Positions 3,309 to 9,742 of a stretch of DNA of 64,000 nt are shown in pieces. The position numbers were made by a program, and so were the translations under genes. The notes beneath the pieces were generated by a model. The model was not told the DNA's origin, did not search any database, and worked only from the letters and a program-made list of their open reading frames with translations. The stretch comes from Escherichia phage EJP2. The stretch lies in sequence record OQ411014.1; one strand, given 5' to 3'. Numbering within the stretch: position 1 is the stretch's first letter; the number at the start of each line of letters is the position of its first letter.

Positions 3309-3916
3309 TGAAGAAAAAATTCGGCGTGGCGATAAATGACGCCGACTATGCTGTAACATCATATGACGATGCTGGTAAACGCCAGCATTGTCCCTTTTAT
3401 CGAAGATGGGCGAGTATGATAAATCGATGTTATGGTGATGTTGGTGCAACATACACTGAATCCTATGTATGTGATGAATGGTTAACCTTCTCTAACTTTA
3501 AGAGATGGATGGAAACACAAAAATGGGAAGGTATGGAGTTGGACAAAGATTTACTTTATATCAACAATAAGGAATATGGCCCAAATACATGTTTATTTTT
3601 ACCAAAGGTTATTAATTCACTATTCGTTGATAGTAAATCGAGCCGTGGTACTAATCCGATTGGTGTATCTTTTGAAAAACGTCGATTGAAATATGAAGCA
3701 TATATATCAATTGATAATAAGAAAAAACATCTTGGATATTTTGATAACCCAATTGATGCACATGTAAAATGGCAACATGCAAAATTGAAAGTATTGGAAG
3801 ATTTCATGAAAACGTTATCTGACCCTATACATATACAAATTGTAGATTTGCGAATCAACAAGCTAAAGAATGATATACAATCAAATATCATAACCGAATC
3901 TTTACATCATTTCTAA
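3308..3916 (+). CDS. AP2-domain protein, homing-endonuclease-like
   Basis: N-terminal YRRWASMINRCY...YVCDEWLTFSNFKRWM motif typical of phage free-standing endonuclease-like genes. C-terminal GVSFEKRRLKYEAYISIDNKKKHLGYFDNPIDAHVKW fits an AP2 DNA-binding domain. TAATG overlap with the upstream gene. Confidence 0.45.
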   Translation: MKKKFGVAINDADYAVTSYDDAGKRQHCPFYRRWASMINRCYGDVGATYTESYVCDEWLTFSNFKRWMETQKWEGMELDKDLLYINNKEYGPNTCLFLPKVINSLFVDSKSSRGTNPIGVSFEKRRLKYEAYISIDNKKKHLGYFDNPIDAHVKWQHAKLKVLEDFMKTLSDPIHIQIVDLRINKLKNDIQSNIITESLHHF

Positions 3917-4279: not shown

Positions 4280-5200
4280 GTGCATAAAGCGATACAAGAA
4301 CTCAAAACTCGTACTAAGGTTGTTCTATTAGTAAGTTTTCTGTTGCTTGCCGCTGCTATTGGATTATATGGTTTATATCAAAATGATCGTACTACATCAT
4401 CGGGTTCAGAAGAATCAGTAGTACAAAATCAAATTCAAAAGCAACCAGTTACAACGTTACCAATGCAAAAGGCAACAGTACTGGAAAGCAGGAAGCAATA
4501 CGTAGTGCAAGCAGGTGATAGTTATTGGATCATCACTAATAAGATGAAACCTAATAACGTTGAACCACTTGAGTATATGGCAGTACTGAAGAAAGTGAAT
4601 AACAATGTTCAGTTACACACTGCTGTACCAATCTACGTGCCGAATGACAATGATTTGATGCATGTTACATTACCAGATGTGGTTGTCAAATTTGACGTAT
4701 ACGACGATATTGTCGTAAACCACATCAAGGAAGCAGAAGGTTCGAAGGAAGCACAGTCTAATAACAAGAGACGTCTTCTGGGTGGTAAAGTAGGTCCGTC
4801 ATTTAGTAAAAATCGTTTCTATCCTTACAAGGACACGAAAGGAAATTATACTATTGGGTACGGTCATTATATTGGTCCCAAAGAGTCCGAAGCGAGAAAG
4901 TATCGTTTTGGGTTGACCGAACGTGAAGCACACAAACTGTTGATTCAGGATATGAAAAAGACTCGTGAAGATTTCATATTGTTGCTGAAGCGTAAAAATG
5001 CAGTGAATCTAAGTGTTGAACAGCAACGTGTTTTATACGAAATGGCATTCAACATGGGCGTTGACAAACTGAGTACATTTGGTAAACTATGGAAAAGTGT
5101 AGAACGTCAAAATGAAAAGAAGTTCAAAAAAGAAATTGAGAACTCATTGTGGTACAGACAAGTAGGCAACCGTGCTGAAATGTTACTGAGTTCTCTATAA
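4280..5200 (+). CDS. membrane-anchored LysM plus T4-lysozyme-like (GH24) muramidase
   Basis: GTG start with AGGAGG RBS. N-terminal TM helix VVLLVSFLLLAAAIGLYGLY, LysM-like YVVQAGDSYWII, and C-terminal YKDTKGNYTIGYGH...SLWYRQVGNRAEML matching the T4 lysozyme core. Confidence 0.7.
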   Translation: MHKAIQELKTRTKVVLLVSFLLLAAAIGLYGLYQNDRTTSSGSEESVVQNQIQKQPVTTLPMQKATVLESRKQYVVQAGDSYWIITNKMKPNNVEPLEYMAVLKKVNNNVQLHTAVPIYVPNDNDLMHVTLPDVVVKFDVYDDIVVNHIKEAEGSKEAQSNNKRRLLGGKVGPSFSKNRFYPYKDTKGNYTIGYGHYIGPKESEARKYRFGLTEREAHKLLIQDMKKTREDFILLLKRKNAVNLSVEQQRVLYEMAFNMGVDKLSTFGKLWKSVERQNEKKFKKEIENSLWYRQVGNRAEMLLSSL

Positions 5201-5216
5201 CAGAGAGGTGTTATAT

Positions 5217-5549
5217 ATGCTAAATGTAAACGTTCAAGGTAATGTAGAAATCACTGACGCAATTCATGAACATATTCTGGCTGAAGCGGATCATCTAGAA
5301 AAGTACAGTACTGATAAAGTACTGGAACTTGATGTTCACGTGAAAAAAGAACACAAAACTCAATACACTGTAACAATCGTTGGTAACGGCAAATCCAGTA
5401 CTGCCAACGCTGCTGATTTATACAAAGCAATCACTGACTCCTTTGGTAAAATGGATAAAGTGCTTGGTAAAGATAAGAGTGTAAAAATCAGTCGCCGTAA
5501 CAATCCTGTTCATCCTGTTGAAATTGACTTGACAGAAGACGAAGAGTAA
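5217..5549 (+). CDS. hpf: ribosome hibernation promoting factor / RaiA (YfiA) homolog
   Basis: NVEITDAIHEHILAEADHLEKY...DLYKAITDSFGKMDKVLGKDK aligns along its length with the bacterial HPF/YfiA family. ATG at 5217 with AGAGAGGTG RBS. Confidence 0.75.
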   Translation: MLNVNVQGNVEITDAIHEHILAEADHLEKYSTDKVLELDVHVKKEHKTQYTVTIVGNGKSSTANAADLYKAITDSFGKMDKVLGKDKSVKISRRNNPVHPVEIDLTEDEE

Positions 5550-5561
5550 TACATAATACAA

Positions 5562-5586
5562 GGAAGCCATATGGCTTCCTTTTTTA
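5562..5586 (+). terminator. rho-independent terminator
   Basis: Hairpin GGAAGCCATATGGCTTCC followed by a T-run. Confidence 0.6.
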
Positions 5587-5590
5587 ATAT

Positions 5591-6139
5591 ATGGAGAACA
5601 CAATGAGTGAATTTACAAAGGTAATCAATAAGGTTCGTAGTTTCACTGCTGAAGATTGGCACAGAACCAAACATGGCTCGTGGGAATCTTTTGACAAATA
5701 TAGTTTTCGTTCAGCAGATTATGAAATTATGTCCGAAGATATGGAAGATTTTGTTCTAGGTGATAGTACTCCATATCGTGAAGTACTCCCACTAATCGGT
5801 CATGTTGTTTGGCACGCTGAAGAGATGTCATATAGTAAAGATCTGCACTCAATTCAAATTATTGTTGGGTCTTCTAAAAGGAAAGGTGATATCACACTAT
5901 ATGTGCGTAAAGATTTGGTGTATCTGGTAAATGACACATTACGATACACGGAAAATCCCGAAGACTGCCCTACAGAATCGCAGTACTTCCAAATCTTACT
6001 TGAACAACCTGAATTTCCTGACATGTCCTACGATGAGTTCAAATCTTTGTTCACACTGTATGATCATTTGAACGAGGTAATCACAAAAGGTAAAACAATG
6101 ACATTTGCTGGGAGTAGATATCATGATTACAATGCTTGA
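5591..6139 (+). CDS. hypothetical protein
   Basis: 182-aa ORF (alternative start at 5603). Follows the terminator at 5562-5586. Confidence 0.55.
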   Translation: MENTMSEFTKVINKVRSFTAEDWHRTKHGSWESFDKYSFRSADYEIMSEDMEDFVLGDSTPYREVLPLIGHVVWHAEEMSYSKDLHSIQIIVGSSKRKGDITLYVRKDLVYLVNDTLRYTENPEDCPTESQYFQILLEQPEFPDMSYDEFKSLFTLYDHLNEVITKGKTMTFAGSRYHDYNA

Positions 6140-6242
6140 AGAAGACTGGGGCGTAGGTGGGGATTACAATCCATTTGAACCTGAAGAAAAAGAAGAGTCC
6201 CCATCGTGGTGGGATTGGGTTCGTGGATTATTCGGGCGATAA

Positions 6243-6657
6243 TATGAAAATAGAACCTGAACGCATTGCTAAACTAAAACAACTCATGGAACATACGTTA
6301 GAACTTCCACGAGAAAATCTAACATCATTCACAACCAAACCTTGGTGTACAGGTTGGTGGGTTAGTGATTATGTTTATGCTGATTATGACCACAACGAGC
6401 TAATGATTTGTGTACTGAAAAGTGACGTGGTGTGGGGACAGACTGGTAAGTTATACATAAGTTCAAATCACGTTCAATTGATAAAAACTGCACCACCGTT
6501 TACACTTAGCGTTCCGAGAATCAGTACTGAAGAAGAGTATTTTCAACAGTCAACACTTCATGATTTGACAAATTTGGACTTGGATTTCTTTTTGACTTGT
6601 AATAAACTCTATTCACTATGTTGCAGTTTACACACGATTGGGGATACAGATGTATAG
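6243..6657 (+). CDS. paralog-family protein 1 (conserved STEEE-YFQ-LHDL-LDLDFF C-terminus)
   Basis: First of four tandem paralogs. C-terminal ISTEEEYFQQSTLHDLTNLDLDFFL. Start set at ATG 6243 by alignment with paralog N-termini. Confidence 0.55.
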
Positions 6658-7042
6658 TCGTATGCTAAAAGAACTGAATGAACTTCTGGTGAATGTATTG
6701 GGATGGCCTGCTGATAATTACAGATACATCAGAGAACGTGATTTAGGAACCATCAGAGATTGCTGGGTGAATAAATTCACATTCGCAGAAGATAATTGTG
6801 GTGATGTTTCGGTATCTTTGTCTAAATGTTCGGATATTGATTTTTGTTACATCAAGATATTGGAAGATGCAGTGGAGTTCCGAAAAGGATTGTCTACGAT
6901 TTGGAGTTACCCACGATTGAGTACTGAAGAAGAGTTTTTTCAATTATCAGTACTGCATGATACATCTGGCTTGGATTTGGACTTCTTTTTGAATTGCACT
7001 AAACTATACAACCTGGGCAAAATTGCACTAATAGAGGGATAA
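6650..7042 (+). CDS. paralog-family protein 2
   Basis: C-terminal LSTEEEFFQLSVLHDTSGLDLDFFL. ATG at 6650 with GGGGA RBS. Overlaps the upstream stop. Confidence 0.55.
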   Translation: MYSRMLKELNELLVNVLGWPADNYRYIRERDLGTIRDCWVNKFTFAEDNCGDVSVSLSKCSDIDFCYIKILEDAVEFRKGLSTIWSYPRLSTEEEFFQLSVLHDTSGLDLDFFLNCTKLYNLGKIALIEG

Positions 7043-7043
7043 C

Positions 7044-7454
7044 ATGGCTATGAATCCAAATAAAGTAGTACAGCTAAGAGATTTACTACCGTACATTTTA
7101 GAACTTCCTGAGAAAGCACATAAACGATTGTCCTTCCGATATGAAGTTGGTGGTGGGTGGATCAATGACTTTGTGAATGTATTTTTCATCAATGACAAGC
7201 TCACAGTTTCCGTGACTGCTGATGTGGAGTTTAAAACTGGTTACTTCACTATAAGCGAAAATACAGTTGAATATTACACTTCCAATAAAGGTGGTGCGAA
7301 ACCGGAAATAACGTACAAACTTGTCAGTACTGAAGAAGAGCATTTCCAGGAGTCACTAATTCATGATTTAACACTTTTAGATCTGGACTTCTTCCTGAAC
7401 TGTGCTAAAATATACGCACTATGTGATGATTTGATCACGATTGATTATTATTGA
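7044..7454 (+). CDS. paralog-family protein 3
   Basis: C-terminal VSTEEEHFQESLIHDLTLLDLDFFL. GAGGGA RBS. Confidence 0.6.
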   Translation: MAMNPNKVVQLRDLLPYILELPEKAHKRLSFRYEVGGGWINDFVNVFFINDKLTVSVTADVEFKTGYFTISENTVEYYTSNKGGAKPEITYKLVSTEEEHFQESLIHDLTLLDLDFFLNCAKIYALCDDLITIDYY

Positions 7455-7462
7455 GGATTATA

Positions 7463-7864
7463 ATGTACAATAGTGTAATGATGCAGCATTTCACTACAAT
7501 GATTGGTGCTGCCATGAATAGTCCTAAACTGAAAACGTTACGCATCATTGATGGTGCGTGCTGGATTACAGAAAATGCTTTTATCTGGATGCATGAGAGT
7601 CGTGATAAATTAACTATCACAATAAAGCCATCATTTAGTTTAGAAGAGATACTACAACATAGTAGTATTGATATCAAACATGATAGTATAGATATTCGTA
7701 ACTCCCATAACCCAAAAGGTATTAATATCCCACGTATTAGTACTGAAGAAGAGTACTTTCAACAAAGTACTATTCATGATTTATCAAATTTCAACCTTGA
7801 TTTTTTCAAACAATGTGCAGTACTGTTCGATAAAACATGGGATCAACTTACATGGTGTAAGTAG
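7463..7864 (+). CDS. paralog-family protein 4
   Basis: C-terminal ISTEEEYFQQSTIHDLSNFNLDFF. ATG at 7463 with GAGGA RBS. Confidence 0.55.
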   Translation: MYNSVMMQHFTTMIGAAMNSPKLKTLRIIDGACWITENAFIWMHESRDKLTITIKPSFSLEEILQHSSIDIKHDSIDIRNSHNPKGINIPRISTEEEYFQQSTIHDLSNFNLDFFKQCAVLFDKTWDQLTWCK

Positions 7865-7891
7865 TATTTTACATTATTATGAGGAACTAAA

Positions 7892-9001
7892 ATGAAAAAG
7901 TATTTGGTTGGTGGTTTTGTACGCGATAAGCTACTTGGCTTACGTCCTAAAGACAAAGATTATGTCTTGGTAGGAGCGACCCCGCGTGATATTCAGTACT
8001 TAAAAAGTATTGGATATGAGCAGGTTGGTGCAGACTTCCCTGTGTTCTTGGATAAGGACGGCAATGAGCACGCACTTGCCCGTACTGAACGCAAGGTGTC
8101 TGATGGCTATAATGGCTTTGAAGTGAATACACAAGGTGTAACGCTTCAGGAAGACTTGTATCGTCGTGATTTGACCATCAATGCGATTGCCTTTGACCCA
8201 CAGTTAAAGGTACACGTAGACCCATATGGTGGCAAAGAAGACCTAAAGAACAAAGTACTGCGACATGTATCTGAACATTTTGAAGAAGATCCAGTACGTA
8301 TTCTGCGTATCGCTCGTTTCAGTGCACGTTATTCGGACTTTACAGTACATGAAAGTACTGAATCGTTGATTCGCCGTATGATCAATCGTGGCGATATTTC
8401 TGAATTGACTAAAGAGCGAGTGTACGTAGAATTCGAGAAAGCATTCTCCGAAGAAGAGCCAGTTATCTTCCTGGAGAAGCTATCCAAATGGGGAGCCATG
8501 AGTAAGTTGATTCCTGGTAATCCTGAAAGTACTTACAAGACTATTGAATACATTAGTTCCAATTGTACTTTAGCGTATAAGGATTTTTACTTGTGGGCTG
8601 AACTAATTGGTTCTAATGAAGTACAAAAAGATGGAGTCTTTGGTCAGGTCAAGCTACCATCGCGTTACTCTAAGTTCAGTGCGTATGTATGCAAGCACGC
8701 GGATAGTATCAAGAATTTCCGTAAGAGCACCCCAGAAGAAATGGTAAATATTCTTACTGAGATGAGCGTAAAGAACAACGGTGGTGAAGAGTACTTGTAC
8801 AAAGTACTGGAATACTTTATCCTACGTAAAGAGATTGATTTGGACTTAGAAGATTTGATTATTCGAGTTTATGATCGCTTTGAGAATACGGTCATTGGTA
8901 ATATTGATCAGATGCTTAAAGATGGAACTATCACTTCACGTGAAATTCCTTCTTTTGTGAAAGAGAAGCGAATCGCTGAGGTGGAAAAAATCTTCAAATA
9001 A
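7892..9001 (+). CDS. cca: CCA-adding tRNA nucleotidyltransferase (class II head domain, no HD domain)
   Basis: N-terminal LVGGFVRDKLLG...DKDYVLVGATP...GADFPVFL...ALARTERK...RRDLTINAIA closely matches bacterial CCA-adding enzymes. At 369 aa it lacks the C-terminal HD domain. Confidence 0.9.
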   Translation: MKKYLVGGFVRDKLLGLRPKDKDYVLVGATPRDIQYLKSIGYEQVGADFPVFLDKDGNEHALARTERKVSDGYNGFEVNTQGVTLQEDLYRRDLTINAIAFDPQLKVHVDPYGGKEDLKNKVLRHVSEHFEEDPVRILRIARFSARYSDFTVHESTESLIRRMINRGDISELTKERVYVEFEKAFSEEEPVIFLEKLSKWGAMSKLIPGNPESTYKTIEYISSNCTLAYKDFYLWAELIGSNEVQKDGVFGQVKLPSRYSKFSAYVCKHADSIKNFRKSTPEEMVNILTEMSVKNNGGEEYLYKVLEYFILRKEIDLDLEDLIIRVYDRFENTVIGNIDQMLKDGTITSREIPSFVKEKRIAEVEKIFK

Positions 9002-9002
9002 A

Positions 9003-9032
9003 TTGAGATATTTTCGAAAAAAGTGATATATT
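9003..9032 (+). promoter_or_regulatory. early promoter (TTGAGA -35, TGn TATATT)
   Basis: TTGAGA 9003-9008, TG 9024-9025, TATATT 9027-9032. Confidence 0.45.
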
Positions 9033-9064
9033 ATAAGTATCTGAGATATGTAAGAGATAAAAAT

Positions 9065-9742
9065 ATGCGATATACATGCGGGATAATATTTTATCGAAAC
9101 GGTCAGATACTTGTAGGTCACACGACTGGTCAGAGTCATTGGGATTTACCGAAAGGTAAGACTGAAGGTTCTGAGACATTCAAGGAAGCGGCAGTTCGTG
9201 AATGCTATGAAGAAACTGGATACAGTATTGATGAACGAGATTTACTGTACTTAGGTGATGTATCATACAGAAAGGGAAAGCGTTTAGTACTGTTCTTTTA
9301 CACAGCCAAGACGAAACCAATTGCTGAAGAGTTGCAATGTATCAGTACTTACACGAATAAGTACGGTATTGTACGTCCAGAGTTGGACAAATTCAAGTAC
9401 ATAGACATTGAGGACTGTGAACTCTACTTGACTGAACGGATGTGTGATAGTATAATCAAAGCTATTACACAATTTGATAAAAAGACAAATAAAAAGGAAG
9501 ATAATATGAAAGTTGTAATTTATGGTCGTAAAGCTGGTTGTAAGTGGTGTACTACTGCTAAAGAAGTTTGTGAAACTAACTCAATTGATTTTGATTTCAT
9601 TGATTTAGATGAAGCTGGTATTGATGGTGCTAAACTCGCTGAAATTTGTGGCACTCCAGTACGTACTGTTCCACAAATTTTCGTTGACGATCAACACATT
9701 GGTGGTTGTACTGAGTTTATTTCGCACCTATCCAAAATGTAA
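9065..9742 (+). CDS. Nudix hydrolase joined in-frame to a glutaredoxin-like domain
   Basis: Complete Nudix box GKTEGSETFKEAAVRECYEETGY. C-terminal 78 aa is glutaredoxin/NrdH-like (CKWC, TVPQIFVDDQHIGG) and has its own internal ATG at 9506 with an AAGGAAG RBS, but no stop separates the two domains. Confidence 0.7.
   Translation: MRYTCGIIFYRNGQILVGHTTGQSHWDLPKGKTEGSETFKEAAVRECYEETGYSIDERDLLYLGDVSYRKGKRLVLFFYTAKTKPIAEELQCISTYTNKYGIVRPELDKFKYIDIEDCELYLTERMCDSIIKAITQFDKKTNKKEDNMKVVIYGRKAGCKWCTTAKEVCETNSIDFDFIDLDEAGIDGAKLAEICGTPVRTVPQIFVDDQHIGGCTEFISHLSKM

What the first reader, a model, noticed from the sequence alone, without database searches (positions are those of the whole stretch)
6122..6241. 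Possible 39-aa Trp-rich overlapping ORF at the junction before the paralog array
An ATG at 6122 opens a 39-codon frame (MITMLEEDWGVGGDYNPFEPEEKEESPSWWDWVRGLFGR) overlapping the end of the 5591 gene and ending just before the ATG at 6243. It may be a small protein or a translational coupling element.
Basis: seen in the sequence. Interest (0 to 1): 0.2.

Follow-up and report, generated by a model that had tools for sequence, protein, structure and literature searches.

The report
Conserved 39-residue acidic jumbo-phage protein
The 39-codon frame is a real small gene, already annotated as a hypothetical protein, that a clade of jumbo phages keeps between their ribosome-hibernation-factor and tRNA CCA-adding-enzyme genes; its function is unknown.

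Summary
The ORF exists as described, one base off. The ATG is at 6123, the TAA stop at 6240-6242, and the next gene's ATG at 6244. An ORF this size is at chance level here: the window has 88 of similar length. Conservation is what makes it a gene.

- **Identity.** The peptide is identical to 'hypothetical protein EJP02_186 [Escherichia phage EJP2]'.
- **Spread.** Homologues of 38-76 aa occur in about 42 jumbo-phage records (121Q/PBECO4-type, Munch, fENko-Kae01, Hallingskeid) and in metagenomes.
- **Family match.** A family profile built without the window's own sequence hits only this frame among 1223 window ORFs (E 6e-13).
- **Architecture.** An invariant N-terminal M-I-x-Φ-L-E-E-D-W-G-V (Φ = M, V or I), encoded by varying synonymous codons. 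Then an acidic, aromatic linker of variable length. Then a C-terminal amphipathic helix, which is the only part AlphaFold2 predicts as structured.
- **Translation signals.** Nearly every member has a GGAG Shine-Dalgarno. The stop abuts or overlaps the next start.
- **Position.** The gene always lies between the HPF and CCA-adding-enzyme genes, with or without the paralog array. In the window it sits inside that array, not before it.

I infer a disordered two-site binding peptide of the phage's translation/tRNA-repair module. The partner and function are not established. It is a real gene, already catalogued (phrog_34272), and of modest interest.

The parts
6110..6114 (+). Shine-Dalgarno GGGAG, 8 nt upstream of the start codon, lying inside the 3' end of the upstream gene
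   Evidence: Sequence. A GGAG/GAGG at 4-9 nt upstream is present in all family members examined except the degenerate second copy in fEgEco12. An SD-like 4-mer precedes only 5.2% of all ATGs in the window.
6123..6242 (+). Small protein gene, 39 codons plus TAA; identical to EJP02_186 of Escherichia phage EJP2; same family as 121Q gp538 (phrog_34272)
   Evidence: P0006 identical; called as a gene on at least 23 assembled contigs; leave-one-out HMM E 5.9e-13.
6123..6155 (+). Codons 1-11, invariant N-terminal motif M-I-T-M-L-E-E-D-W-G-V
   Evidence: L, E, E, D, G and V are invariant across 13 sequences, and W and I nearly so; the same holds across 22 clusters. Synonymous codon variation occurs at Leu (CTT/CTC/CTA/TTA), Asp, Gly and Val.
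6123..6139 (+). 17-nt dual-coding overlap with the 3' end of the upstream paralog gene (5591-6139, frame +2)
   Evidence: The overlap is not conserved: there is a 35-nt gap in Hallingskeid, 11 nt in 121Q, and a 4-nt ATGA overlap in several metagenomic loci.
6156..6206 (+). Codons 12-28, acidic and aromatic linker (GGDYNPFEPEEKEESPS), predicted disordered
   Evidence: AF2 pLDDT is 55-66 with no secondary structure. Linker length varies from about 12 to about 55 residues across the family. The whole peptide has net charge -7.
6207..6233 (+). Codons 29-37, C-terminal helix (WWDWVRGLF)
   Evidence: This is the only element AF2 predicts, with pLDDT about 81. The family consensus is S-[WF]-[WY]-[DE]-[KR]-Φ-x-[DE]-Φ-Φ..G. 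The best 11-residue hydrophobic-moment window of the family, which in most members lies in the C-terminal helix, scores about 0.4-0.8.
6240..6246 (+). Stop-start junction TAA-T-ATG between the small gene and the next paralog gene (6244-6657)
   Evidence: There is no SD-like 4-mer upstream of 6244, nor of the alternative GTG at 6223.
5591..6139 (+). Upstream gene, the diverged first member of the five-gene paralog array
   Evidence: Alignment A4 shares the invariant W..TE..FQ..D..D.F columns.
6244..7864 (+). Four further paralogs (6244-6657, 6650-7042, 7044-7454, 7463-7864) lying between the small gene and the CCA-adding enzyme gene (7892-9001)

Best explanation
SHOWN. The frame 6123-6242 is an independently initiated protein-coding gene. 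It encodes a 39-residue, very acidic (net charge -7), Trp- and aromatic-rich peptide. The peptide belongs to a small family confined to 121Q/PBECO4-like and related jumbo phages.

The family has three parts:
- an invariant N-terminal motif M-I-x-Φ-L-E-E-D-W-G-V (Φ = M, V or I);
- an acidic, aromatic linker of variable length, predicted disordered;
- a C-terminal amphipathic helix ending Φ-Φ-x-G.

The gene is a fixed resident of the interval between the ribosome-hibernation-factor (HPF/RaiA) gene and the CCA-adding tRNA nucleotidyltransferase gene. That interval lies in a lysozyme-HPF-...-CCA-Nudix-glutaredoxin operon.

INFERRED, translation. The gene is translated from its own Shine-Dalgarno. 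Its stop, 1 nt before an ATG that has no SD-like 4-mer of its own, probably hands ribosomes to the next gene by termination-reinitiation.

INFERRED, mechanism. The product acts as a disordered, bivalent binding peptide. The LEEDWGV element and the C-terminal helix would be two docking sites joined by a flexible polyanionic tether. The tether would occupy a basic, nucleic-acid-binding type of surface.

The most likely partner is a component of the translation/tRNA-repair machinery. That means the phage CCA-adding enzyme, to which the gene is tightly coupled in most lineages, or a host factor.

My probabilities:
- real translated gene: about 0.93;
- contributes to coupling of the downstream gene: about 0.6;
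- bivalent protein-binding peptide: about 0.35;
- partner lies in the CCA/HPF/tRNA module: about 0.25.
For: Gene is real:
- The peptide is identical to an NCBI-annotated protein, EJP02_186.
- It was called as a gene on at least 23 independent assemblies.
- Homologues are annotated as CDS in Hallingskeid, 121Q, G17, Munch, fENko-Kae01, UE-S1, JNE01, phAPEC6 and fEgEco12. tblastn finds the protein in about 42 jumbo-phage records.
- An exhaustive profile search of 1.84 billion representative proteins finds 17 clusters, all stand-alone proteins of 38-76 aa.
- The leave-one-out HMM hits only this frame in the window, E 5.9e-13.
- Selection acts on the peptide. The N-terminal motif is invariant while its Leu, Asp, Gly and Val codons vary. 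Pairwise dN/dS is 0.08-0.8 where dS could be estimated.
- GTG replaces ATG at the same codon in fEgEco12 and UE-S1, which fixes the initiation site.
- An SD is present in nearly all members.

Not an RNA element: there is no Rfam hit, and folding energy is no better than shuffles, z = 0.21.

Architecture: AF2 predicts only helix 29-37 (pLDDT about 81), with the rest at low confidence.

Context:
- The gene always lies between HPF and CCA.
- It is directly upstream of CCA, 0-11 nt apart or overlapping as ATGA, in 121Q-type phages, Munch/fENko-Kae01 and loci L013, L014, L023 and L025.
- It is present where no paralog exists at all, in L023.
- The role of phage CCA-adding enzymes and neighbouring genes in repairing attacks on tRNA comes from the literature (PMC7824862).

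Coupling: the TAA-T-ATG junction and the absence of an SD-like 4-mer for 6244.
Against: - There is no direct evidence of translation.
- The GenBank record of fENko-Kae01 carries an 'identified with LC-MS/MS analysis' note for HPF, the CCA enzyme and Nudix. It carries no such note for the small protein, ENKO_221. The published analysis used an ultrafiltered lysate. I could not check the full table: a search of the one supplementary file held found none of the identifiers I tried.
- No partner has been identified, and no complex prediction was possible with these tools.
- In the window and in Hallingskeid, 3-4 paralog genes separate the small gene from CCA. Related phages with the same operon lack a stand-alone small gene (RaK2, fHe-Yen9-04). 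It is therefore not an obligatory CCA cofactor.
- The amphipathicity of the window's own C-terminus is not above shuffled controls (2117 of 5000 shuffles reach it).
- dS is saturated for several pairs, so the dN/dS values are rough.
Confidence: 0.55

Rival explanations
1. Membrane-anchored micro-protein. The C-terminal helix would be an in-plane membrane-targeting sequence like that of MinD. It would place the acidic N-terminal part, and whatever binds LEEDWGV, at the inner membrane.
For: The window peptide ends ...WVRGLFGR, and several family members end ...LLFGN, ILFGK or ILFGD. The E. coli MinD membrane-targeting sequence is KGFLKRLFGG (PMC5471200). The best, though non-significant, PDB profile hit is the C-terminal helix of Nup53, KKSWLNRLNNWLFG (E 1.2); its membrane-binding role I know from memory only. 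The helix is terminal, is the only part predicted as structured, and has hydrophobic residues at i, i+1, i+4, i+7 and i+8 across the family.
Against: Across the family the best amphipathic 11-residue window carries about zero net charge (-1 to +1 in 23 of 24 sequences), against +4 for MinD and FtsA in the same calculation. The whole peptide is -7, so it should be repelled by an anionic membrane. 121Q- and Hallingskeid-type members end in ...DWLMGE or ...DWLGL without a basic face. The PDB match is not significant.
Confidence: 0.15
2. Pure coupling or leader ORF. The frame is translated only to deliver ribosomes to, or regulate, the downstream gene, and the peptide itself has no function.
For: The stop lies 1 nt before a downstream ATG that has no SD-like 4-mer. 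Stops abut or overlap the next start in all relatives.
Against: The amino-acid sequence is conserved with synonymous codon changes. The gene downstream differs between phages: a paralog, CCA, or a small membrane protein. The conserved part is the N-terminus, at a variable distance (27-65 codons) from the stop, which is unlike arrest peptides. The same tight spacing is found between most genes of the operon.
Confidence: 0.06
3. Detached module. The small gene descends from the C-terminal part of a larger neighbouring protein by gene fission or truncation, and still works together with such proteins.
For: Xanthomonas phage XbC2_187 (78 aa) carries VMLEEDWGLG plus a C-terminal TFWGELINTDIL (HMM E 2e-3 among six-frame ORFs). 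Its neighbours XbC2_186 and XbC2_188, and Yersinia phage fHe-Yen9-04 g182, end in [ST]FWG.LI..DIL at the same position upstream of CCA. g182 and XbC2_186 also contain M[FY][DE]EY[MF]G[WT]DD. fEgEco12 has two copies, each following a paralog.
Against: The family HMM does not match g182, XbC2_186 or XbC2_188 (full-sequence scores 0.2-3.4 bits, below the inclusion threshold). The helix register differs, FWxxLxDWL against FWxxLxxxDIL. hhalign of the small family against the window's paralog family gives probability 0.2%. L023 has the small gene with no paralog at all.
Confidence: 0.12
4. Not a separate gene. It is either a chance ORF or a frameshifted C-terminal extension of the 5591 gene.
For: ORFs of this size are common in the window (88). 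The frame overlaps the end of the upstream gene.
Against: All the conservation evidence above argues against a chance ORF. In Hallingskeid the open frame begins after the upstream gene has ended (that gene ends at 4513; the small frame opens at 4525), so a frameshift fusion is impossible there. In L023 the upstream neighbour is HPF, 67 nt away.
Confidence: 0.02

Closest known systems
121Q gp538 / phrog_34272 (unknown function) and EJP02_186 of Escherichia phage EJP2
   Same: EJP02_186 is the identical 39-aa sequence. 121Q gp538 shares the same architecture and sits in the same HPF-to-CCA interval.
   Different: The phrog_34272 profile is dominated by 121Q-type sequences. It matches the window peptide only over residues 1-12 (E 0.009). 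The window and Hallingskeid lineage has a different linker and helix, and has paralogs between the small gene and CCA.
C-terminal amphipathic membrane-targeting helices (E. coli MinD MTS KGFLKRLFGG; Nup53 C-terminus)
   Same: A terminal amphipathic helix of 10-15 residues ending Φ-F/L-G.
   Different: The family helix has no net positive charge and follows a polyanionic chain. There is no homology. This is an analogy only.
Small acidic phage proteins that mimic nucleic acid or block a basic surface (for example T7 gp5.9, Ocr and phi29 p56; recalled from memory, not tested here)
   Same: Small size, strong negative charge, phage origin, and a location among genes that deal with host nucleic-acid-directed functions.
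   Different: Those proteins are folded, often as dimers, and have experimentally known targets. This peptide is predicted to be mostly disordered. It has no sequence similarity to anything in the PDB or in Pfam, NCBIfam or PHROGs families of known function.
Regulatory leader or arrest peptides (SecM, TnaC type; recalled from memory)
   Same: A short ORF immediately upstream of, and coupled to, another gene.
   Different: Conservation here is N-terminal, at a variable distance from the stop. The downstream gene is not constant.

Membership tests
EEDWG small-protein family (121Q gp538 / phrog_34272 / EJP02_186) | Significant full-length profile match | tested here: met
   A family HMM built without the window's own sequence scores E 5.9e-13 (44.9 bits) and is the only hit in the window. 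With the window's sequence included in the profile, the match spans profile positions 1-40. The PHROG profile alone matches only residues 1-12, E 0.009.
EEDWG small-protein family (121Q gp538 / phrog_34272 / EJP02_186) | N-terminal M-I-x-Φ-L-E-E-D-W-G-V directly after the initiator | tested here: met
   The window has MITMLEEDWGV.
EEDWG small-protein family (121Q gp538 / phrog_34272 / EJP02_186) | Location between the HPF and CCA-adding enzyme genes on the same strand | tested here: met
   Window: HPF 5208-5549, small gene 6123-6242, CCA 7892-9001. The same order holds in all relatives examined.
MinD/FtsA-type C-terminal membrane-targeting sequence | Terminal amphipathic helix | tested here: inconclusive
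   AF2 predicts helix 29-37. The window's maximal hydrophobic moment of 0.51 is reached by 42% of shuffles. The family-wide hydrophobic periodicity is consistent.
MinD/FtsA-type C-terminal membrane-targeting sequence | Basic polar face or net positive charge for binding anionic lipid | tested here: not met
   The best amphipathic 11-residue window has net charge -1 to +1 in 23 of 24 family sequences, against +4 for the MinD and FtsA sequences. The whole peptide is -7.
MinD/FtsA-type C-terminal membrane-targeting sequence | Membrane localisation | not testable with these tools
   This needs GFP-fusion microscopy or liposome binding.
Ribosome-arrest or leader peptide | Conserved residues at a fixed short distance from the stall or stop site, and a constant regulated downstream gene | tested here: not met
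   The conserved block is residues 1-11, with 27-65 residues to the stop. The downstream gene varies.
Window paralog family (TEEE[FY]FQ..HD..LD.DFF proteins) | Detectable profile similarity to the paralogs | tested here: not met
   hhalign of A2 against A5 gives probability 0.2%.
Structured RNA element or known RNA family at the junction | Rfam match or folding energy beyond shuffles | tested here: not met
   There is no Rfam match at E <= 1, and the folding z-score is 0.21.

The most novel reading that the evidence does not exclude
The peptide is a dedicated micro-protein regulator or decoy in the phage's tRNA-repair arm. One version: an acidic, aromatic mimic of a tRNA acceptor end that modulates the phage CCA-adding enzyme. 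Another: it traps a host tRNA-targeting defence toxin. In either version the LEEDWGV motif and the C-terminal helix would be the two contact sites. That would make it a new class of anti-defence or RNA-repair accessory factor of under 50 residues.
Probability: 0.1. Interest if true: 0.55.

Novelty: already known. Interest (0 to 1): 0.22.

Why it matters
Proteins of about 40 residues are easily dismissed as chance ORFs. Here the call can be trusted, and it tidies up the gene map of the region:
- The small gene lies inside the paralog array.
- The array starts at 5591.
- The next gene most likely starts at ATG 6244 and depends on coupling.

The family is a compact, sharply conserved, uncharacterised component of the HPF/CCA/Nudix operon of the large coliphages now being isolated for therapy. 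If a partner were found, it could show how these phages regulate or protect their translation-repair functions. As it stands, it is one more conserved hypothetical phage micro-protein. It is already present in GenBank and PHROGs, so the finding is sound but of modest interest.

Tried and rejected
1. Megablast of 5200-7900 against phages found nothing. tblastn with the 45-aa TTG-extended peptide and with the 5591 protein also found nothing. Homologues appeared only through blastn 'distant' synteny and a different family member as query.
2. The search for homologous proteins refuses queries under 40 aa. I got round this with an alignment query.
3. Pfam, NCBIfam and a PDB sequence-profile search gave no informative hit for the small protein. 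PHROGs gave only an unknown-function family.
4. I considered homology between LEEDWGV and the paralogs' TEEE[FY]FQ motif and rejected it (hhalign probability 0.2%).
5. I considered a link to the C-termini of g182, XbC2_186 and XbC2_188. The HMM is not significant and the helix register differs. I keep it only as a weak lead.
6. I considered the idea that L-E-E is a T4-type prohead-protease or capsid-targeting signal (recalled from memory). No other ORF in the 64-kb window shares the N-terminal motif. The only proteome available is of a crude lysate and does not list the protein. I did not pursue it.
8. A literature search for the motif string, and searches for the EJP2, Asteriusvirus and fENko-Kae01 papers, found nothing about this gene.

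Full report
**1. Observation**

The coordinates are one base off.
- The ATG is at 6123-6125 and the stop TAA at 6240-6242.
- The next gene's ATG is at 6244-6246.
- The upstream gene (5591-6139) ends with TGA at 6137-6139, so the overlap is 17 nt.
- The translation, MITMLEEDWGVGGDYNPFEPEEKEESPSWWDWVRGLFGR, is exactly as given.

On its own such an ORF means nothing, because the window contains 88 ATG-ORFs of 39-60 codons in six frames. One local feature does speak for it. A GGGAG sits 8 nt upstream of the ATG. An SD-like 4-mer (GGAG, GAGG or AGGA) at -17 to -5 precedes only 5.2% of all + strand ATGs, against 49% of the first ATGs of long ORFs. The alternative TTG start at 6105 has none.

**2. 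Where the window comes from**

Megablast against the phage collection found nothing. Sensitive blastn matched the HPF/RaiA gene (5208-5549) of 37 jumbo phages: Asteriusvirus members such as 121Q and PBECO4, some Salmonella phages, and, most completely, Erwinia phage Hallingskeid.

The 39-aa protein is identical to 'hypothetical protein EJP02_186 [Escherichia phage EJP2]' (P0006). The window is therefore EJP2 or a near-identical phage. The same protein was called as a gene on at least 23 assembled contigs from independent samples.

**3. Conservation**

In Hallingskeid a 39-codon CDS is annotated in the syntenic region: MIYVLEEDWGVTDRDWSDEEEQIESPKSFVDRLVDWLGL. BLASTP against the window peptide gives E 3e-6. 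In 121Q, gp538 is MIAMLEEDWGVSEQGTDEYEYPEYQPKGFWERLRDWLMGE and belongs to phrog_34272, a family of unknown function.
- tblastn with a family member finds the gene in about 42 jumbo-phage records, nearly always annotated 'hypothetical protein'.
- IMG/VR adds three loci, including a 76-aa version.
- An exhaustive HMMER scan of 1.84 billion representative proteins finds only 17 clusters. All are stand-alone proteins of 38-76 aa.
- A family HMM built without the window's own sequence hits exactly one of the window's 1223 stop-to-stop ORFs, this one, at E 5.9e-13.

Within the invariant N-terminal block the codons differ synonymously between phages: Leu is CTT, CTC, CTA or TTA; Asp is GAC or GAT; Gly is GGC, GGT or GGA; Val is GTA, GTT or GTC. 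Pairwise dN/dS lies between 0.08 and 0.8 where dS is not saturated. The constraint is therefore on the peptide, not on an RNA.

In agreement, Rfam gives no match and the region folds no better than shuffled sequence (z = 0.21). In fEgEco12 and UE-S1 the initiator is GTG at the same codon, which pins down the start site.

A frameshift fusion to the upstream gene is excluded. In Hallingskeid the small frame opens only after the upstream gene has ended. In locus L023 the upstream neighbour is HPF, 67 nt away.

**4. Anatomy of the protein**

The family has three parts.
- An invariant N-terminus, M-I-x-Φ-L-E-E-D-W-G-V.
- A linker of about 12 to 55 residues, rich in Asp and Glu with interspersed Tyr, Phe, Trp and Pro.
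- A C-terminal segment S-[WF]-[WY]-[DE]-[KR]-Φ-x-[DE]-Φ-Φ..G.

AlphaFold2, run with the family alignment, predicts only one element, a helix at residues 29-37 (pLDDT about 81). The rest has pLDDT 55-66.

The window peptide has net charge -7 and 7 aromatic residues in 39. Across the family, net charge runs from 0 to -12 and is -4 or lower in all but one sequence. No similarity to any solved structure or any Pfam or NCBIfam family was found.

**5. Context**

The five genes 5591-6139, 6244-6657, 6650-7042, 7044-7454 and 7463-7864 are paralogs. They share invariant W..TE..FQ..D..D.F columns. The small gene therefore lies inside the array, after its first and most diverged member, and not in front of it.

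Across all relatives examined, the small gene always lies between the HPF gene and the CCA-adding enzyme gene. That interval is part of a lysozyme-HPF-...-CCA-Nudix-glutaredoxin operon.
- Upstream of the small gene there are 0 to 4 genes before HPF is reached.
- Downstream there are 0 to 4 genes before the CCA gene.
- L023 has no paralog at all (HPF, small gene, CCA), so the small gene does not depend on the paralogs.
- In the most divergent lineages it directly precedes CCA, with 0-11 nt between them or an ATGA overlap. These are 121Q-type phages, Munch/fENko-Kae01, and loci L013, L014, L023 and L025. This is probably the ancestral arrangement.

Related genera with the same operon (RaK2, fHe-Yen9-04) lack a stand-alone copy. 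It is therefore an accessory gene, not an obligatory CCA cofactor.

The comparative-genomics literature places CCA-adding enzymes, RNA ligases, Nudix and macro domains of jumbo phages in the repair of host attacks on the translation apparatus (PMC7824862).

**6. Translation and coupling**

All members except the degenerate second copy in fEgEco12 have GGAG or GAGG 4-9 nt upstream. Every stop abuts or overlaps the next start.

In the window the junction is TAA-T-ATG. Neither ATG 6244 nor the alternative GTG 6223 that automatic callers chose on related contigs has an SD-like 4-mer. The N-terminus from ATG 6244 aligns with the other paralogs.

The downstream paralog is therefore probably translated by ribosomes terminating on the small gene. 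The same spacing is found throughout the operon (gaps of -17, 1, -8, 1 and 8 nt), and the downstream gene is not conserved, so coupling cannot explain the peptide's conservation.

**7. Mechanism**

Shown: a conserved, independently initiated small gene whose product is mostly disordered and polyanionic. It has two conserved elements at its ends.

Inferred: it works as a bivalent binding peptide. The LEEDWGV element and the terminal helix would dock on a partner, and the acidic, aromatic tether would lie over a basic, nucleic-acid-binding kind of surface. Position and coupling make a partner in the CCA/HPF/tRNA-repair module the best guess. I put about 0.35 on the binding-peptide idea and about 0.25 on that partner class.

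The main rival is a membrane-anchored peptide (0.15).
- For: the window ends ...WVRGLFGR and other members end ...LLFGN or ILFGK. These resemble the MinD membrane-targeting sequence KGFLKRLFGG (PMC5471200) and the non-significant best PDB hit, the Nup53 C-terminal helix.
- Against: the family helix has no net positive charge, and the chain is strongly acidic.

A function-less coupling ORF (0.06), a chance ORF or frameshift extension (0.02), and descent from the C-terminal module of larger neighbours (0.12, a question of origin rather than function) are discussed under the rival explanations.

**8. What is missing**

There is no direct evidence of translation. The GenBank record of fENko-Kae01 marks HPF, CCA and Nudix as identified by LC-MS/MS, but not the small protein. 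The sample was an ultrafiltered lysate. A search of the one supplementary file held found none of the identifiers I tried. No paper in the searchable library mentions the motif. Complex prediction was not possible.

**9. Verdict**

The small-protein interpretation is supported. The gene is already in GenBank (EJP02_186) and its family is in PHROGs (phrog_34272), with no known function. It is a tidy example of a genuine micro-protein and a reasonable target for a pull-down or multimer-prediction screen. It is not a surprise to a phage genomicist. Interest 0.22.

Noticed in passing
[not shown]
   Followed up: partly
window 6157-6243 / 6223 / 6244: The start of the gene after the small ORF is ambiguous. 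The ORF listing extends it to GTG 6157 (166 aa), and gene callers on near-identical contigs chose GTG 6223 (144 aa). ATG 6244 (137 aa) aligns with the N-termini of the other paralogs and directly follows the small gene's stop. None of the starts tested has an SD-like 4-mer.
   Followed up: partly
window 5529-5581: A strong intrinsic-terminator-like hairpin (5560-5581, 9 bp, followed by a T-run) lies after the HPF gene. Immediately before it is an 11/12 match to a sigma-70 promoter (TTGACA-17-CATAAT, 5529-5557). Terminators are annotated at the same place in G17, Munch and UE-S1.
   Followed up: no
L011 (Escherichia phage fEgEco12) 2866-2991 and 4001-4123: There are two copies of the small gene in one phage. 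The second copy (g279, MNTIILEEDLGV...) has Trp replaced by Leu in the invariant motif and no Shine-Dalgarno, so it may be decaying. JNE01 has a g279-type copy with the Trp and the SD intact, followed by a small membrane protein.
   Followed up: partly
L020 (Xanthomonas phage XbC2) 1454-2489; L018 (Yersinia phage fHe-Yen9-04) 2124-2504: XbC2_187 (78 aa) is a distant family member (VMLEEDWGLG...TFWGELINTDIL). Its neighbours XbC2_186 and XbC2_188, and Yen9-04 g182, end with the same [ST]FWG.LI..DIL helix directly upstream of the CCA gene. This may be a larger protein family carrying a related C-terminal module, but it is not statistically supported.
   Followed up: partly
window 9023-9742 (and L004 6943-7620): In this lineage (window/EJP2-like loci, L022 and L026) the gene after CCA carries both Nudix and glutaredoxin Pfam domains in one 225-227-aa product. 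Hallingskeid has a Nudix CDS of the same size at that position. In 121Q, Munch, RaK2, XbC2 and L023-L025 they are two separate genes.
   Followed up: no
L015 (Klebsiella phage fENko-Kae01) 1318-4278: The GenBank record marks the phage HPF, CCA-adding enzyme and Nudix hydrolase as 'identified with LC-MS/MS'. The paper shows the sample was an ultrafiltered lysate with 220 phage proteins detected, so this does not demonstrate packaging into virions.
   Followed up: partly
L013 (IMGVR_UViG_2029527005_000005) 3501-3731: This 76-aa version of the small protein keeps both terminal elements. It has a linker of roughly 50 residues containing a basic KRRKEEAEKK stretch, and it overlaps the CCA start as ATGA. 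The linker length is therefore free to vary.
   Followed up: no
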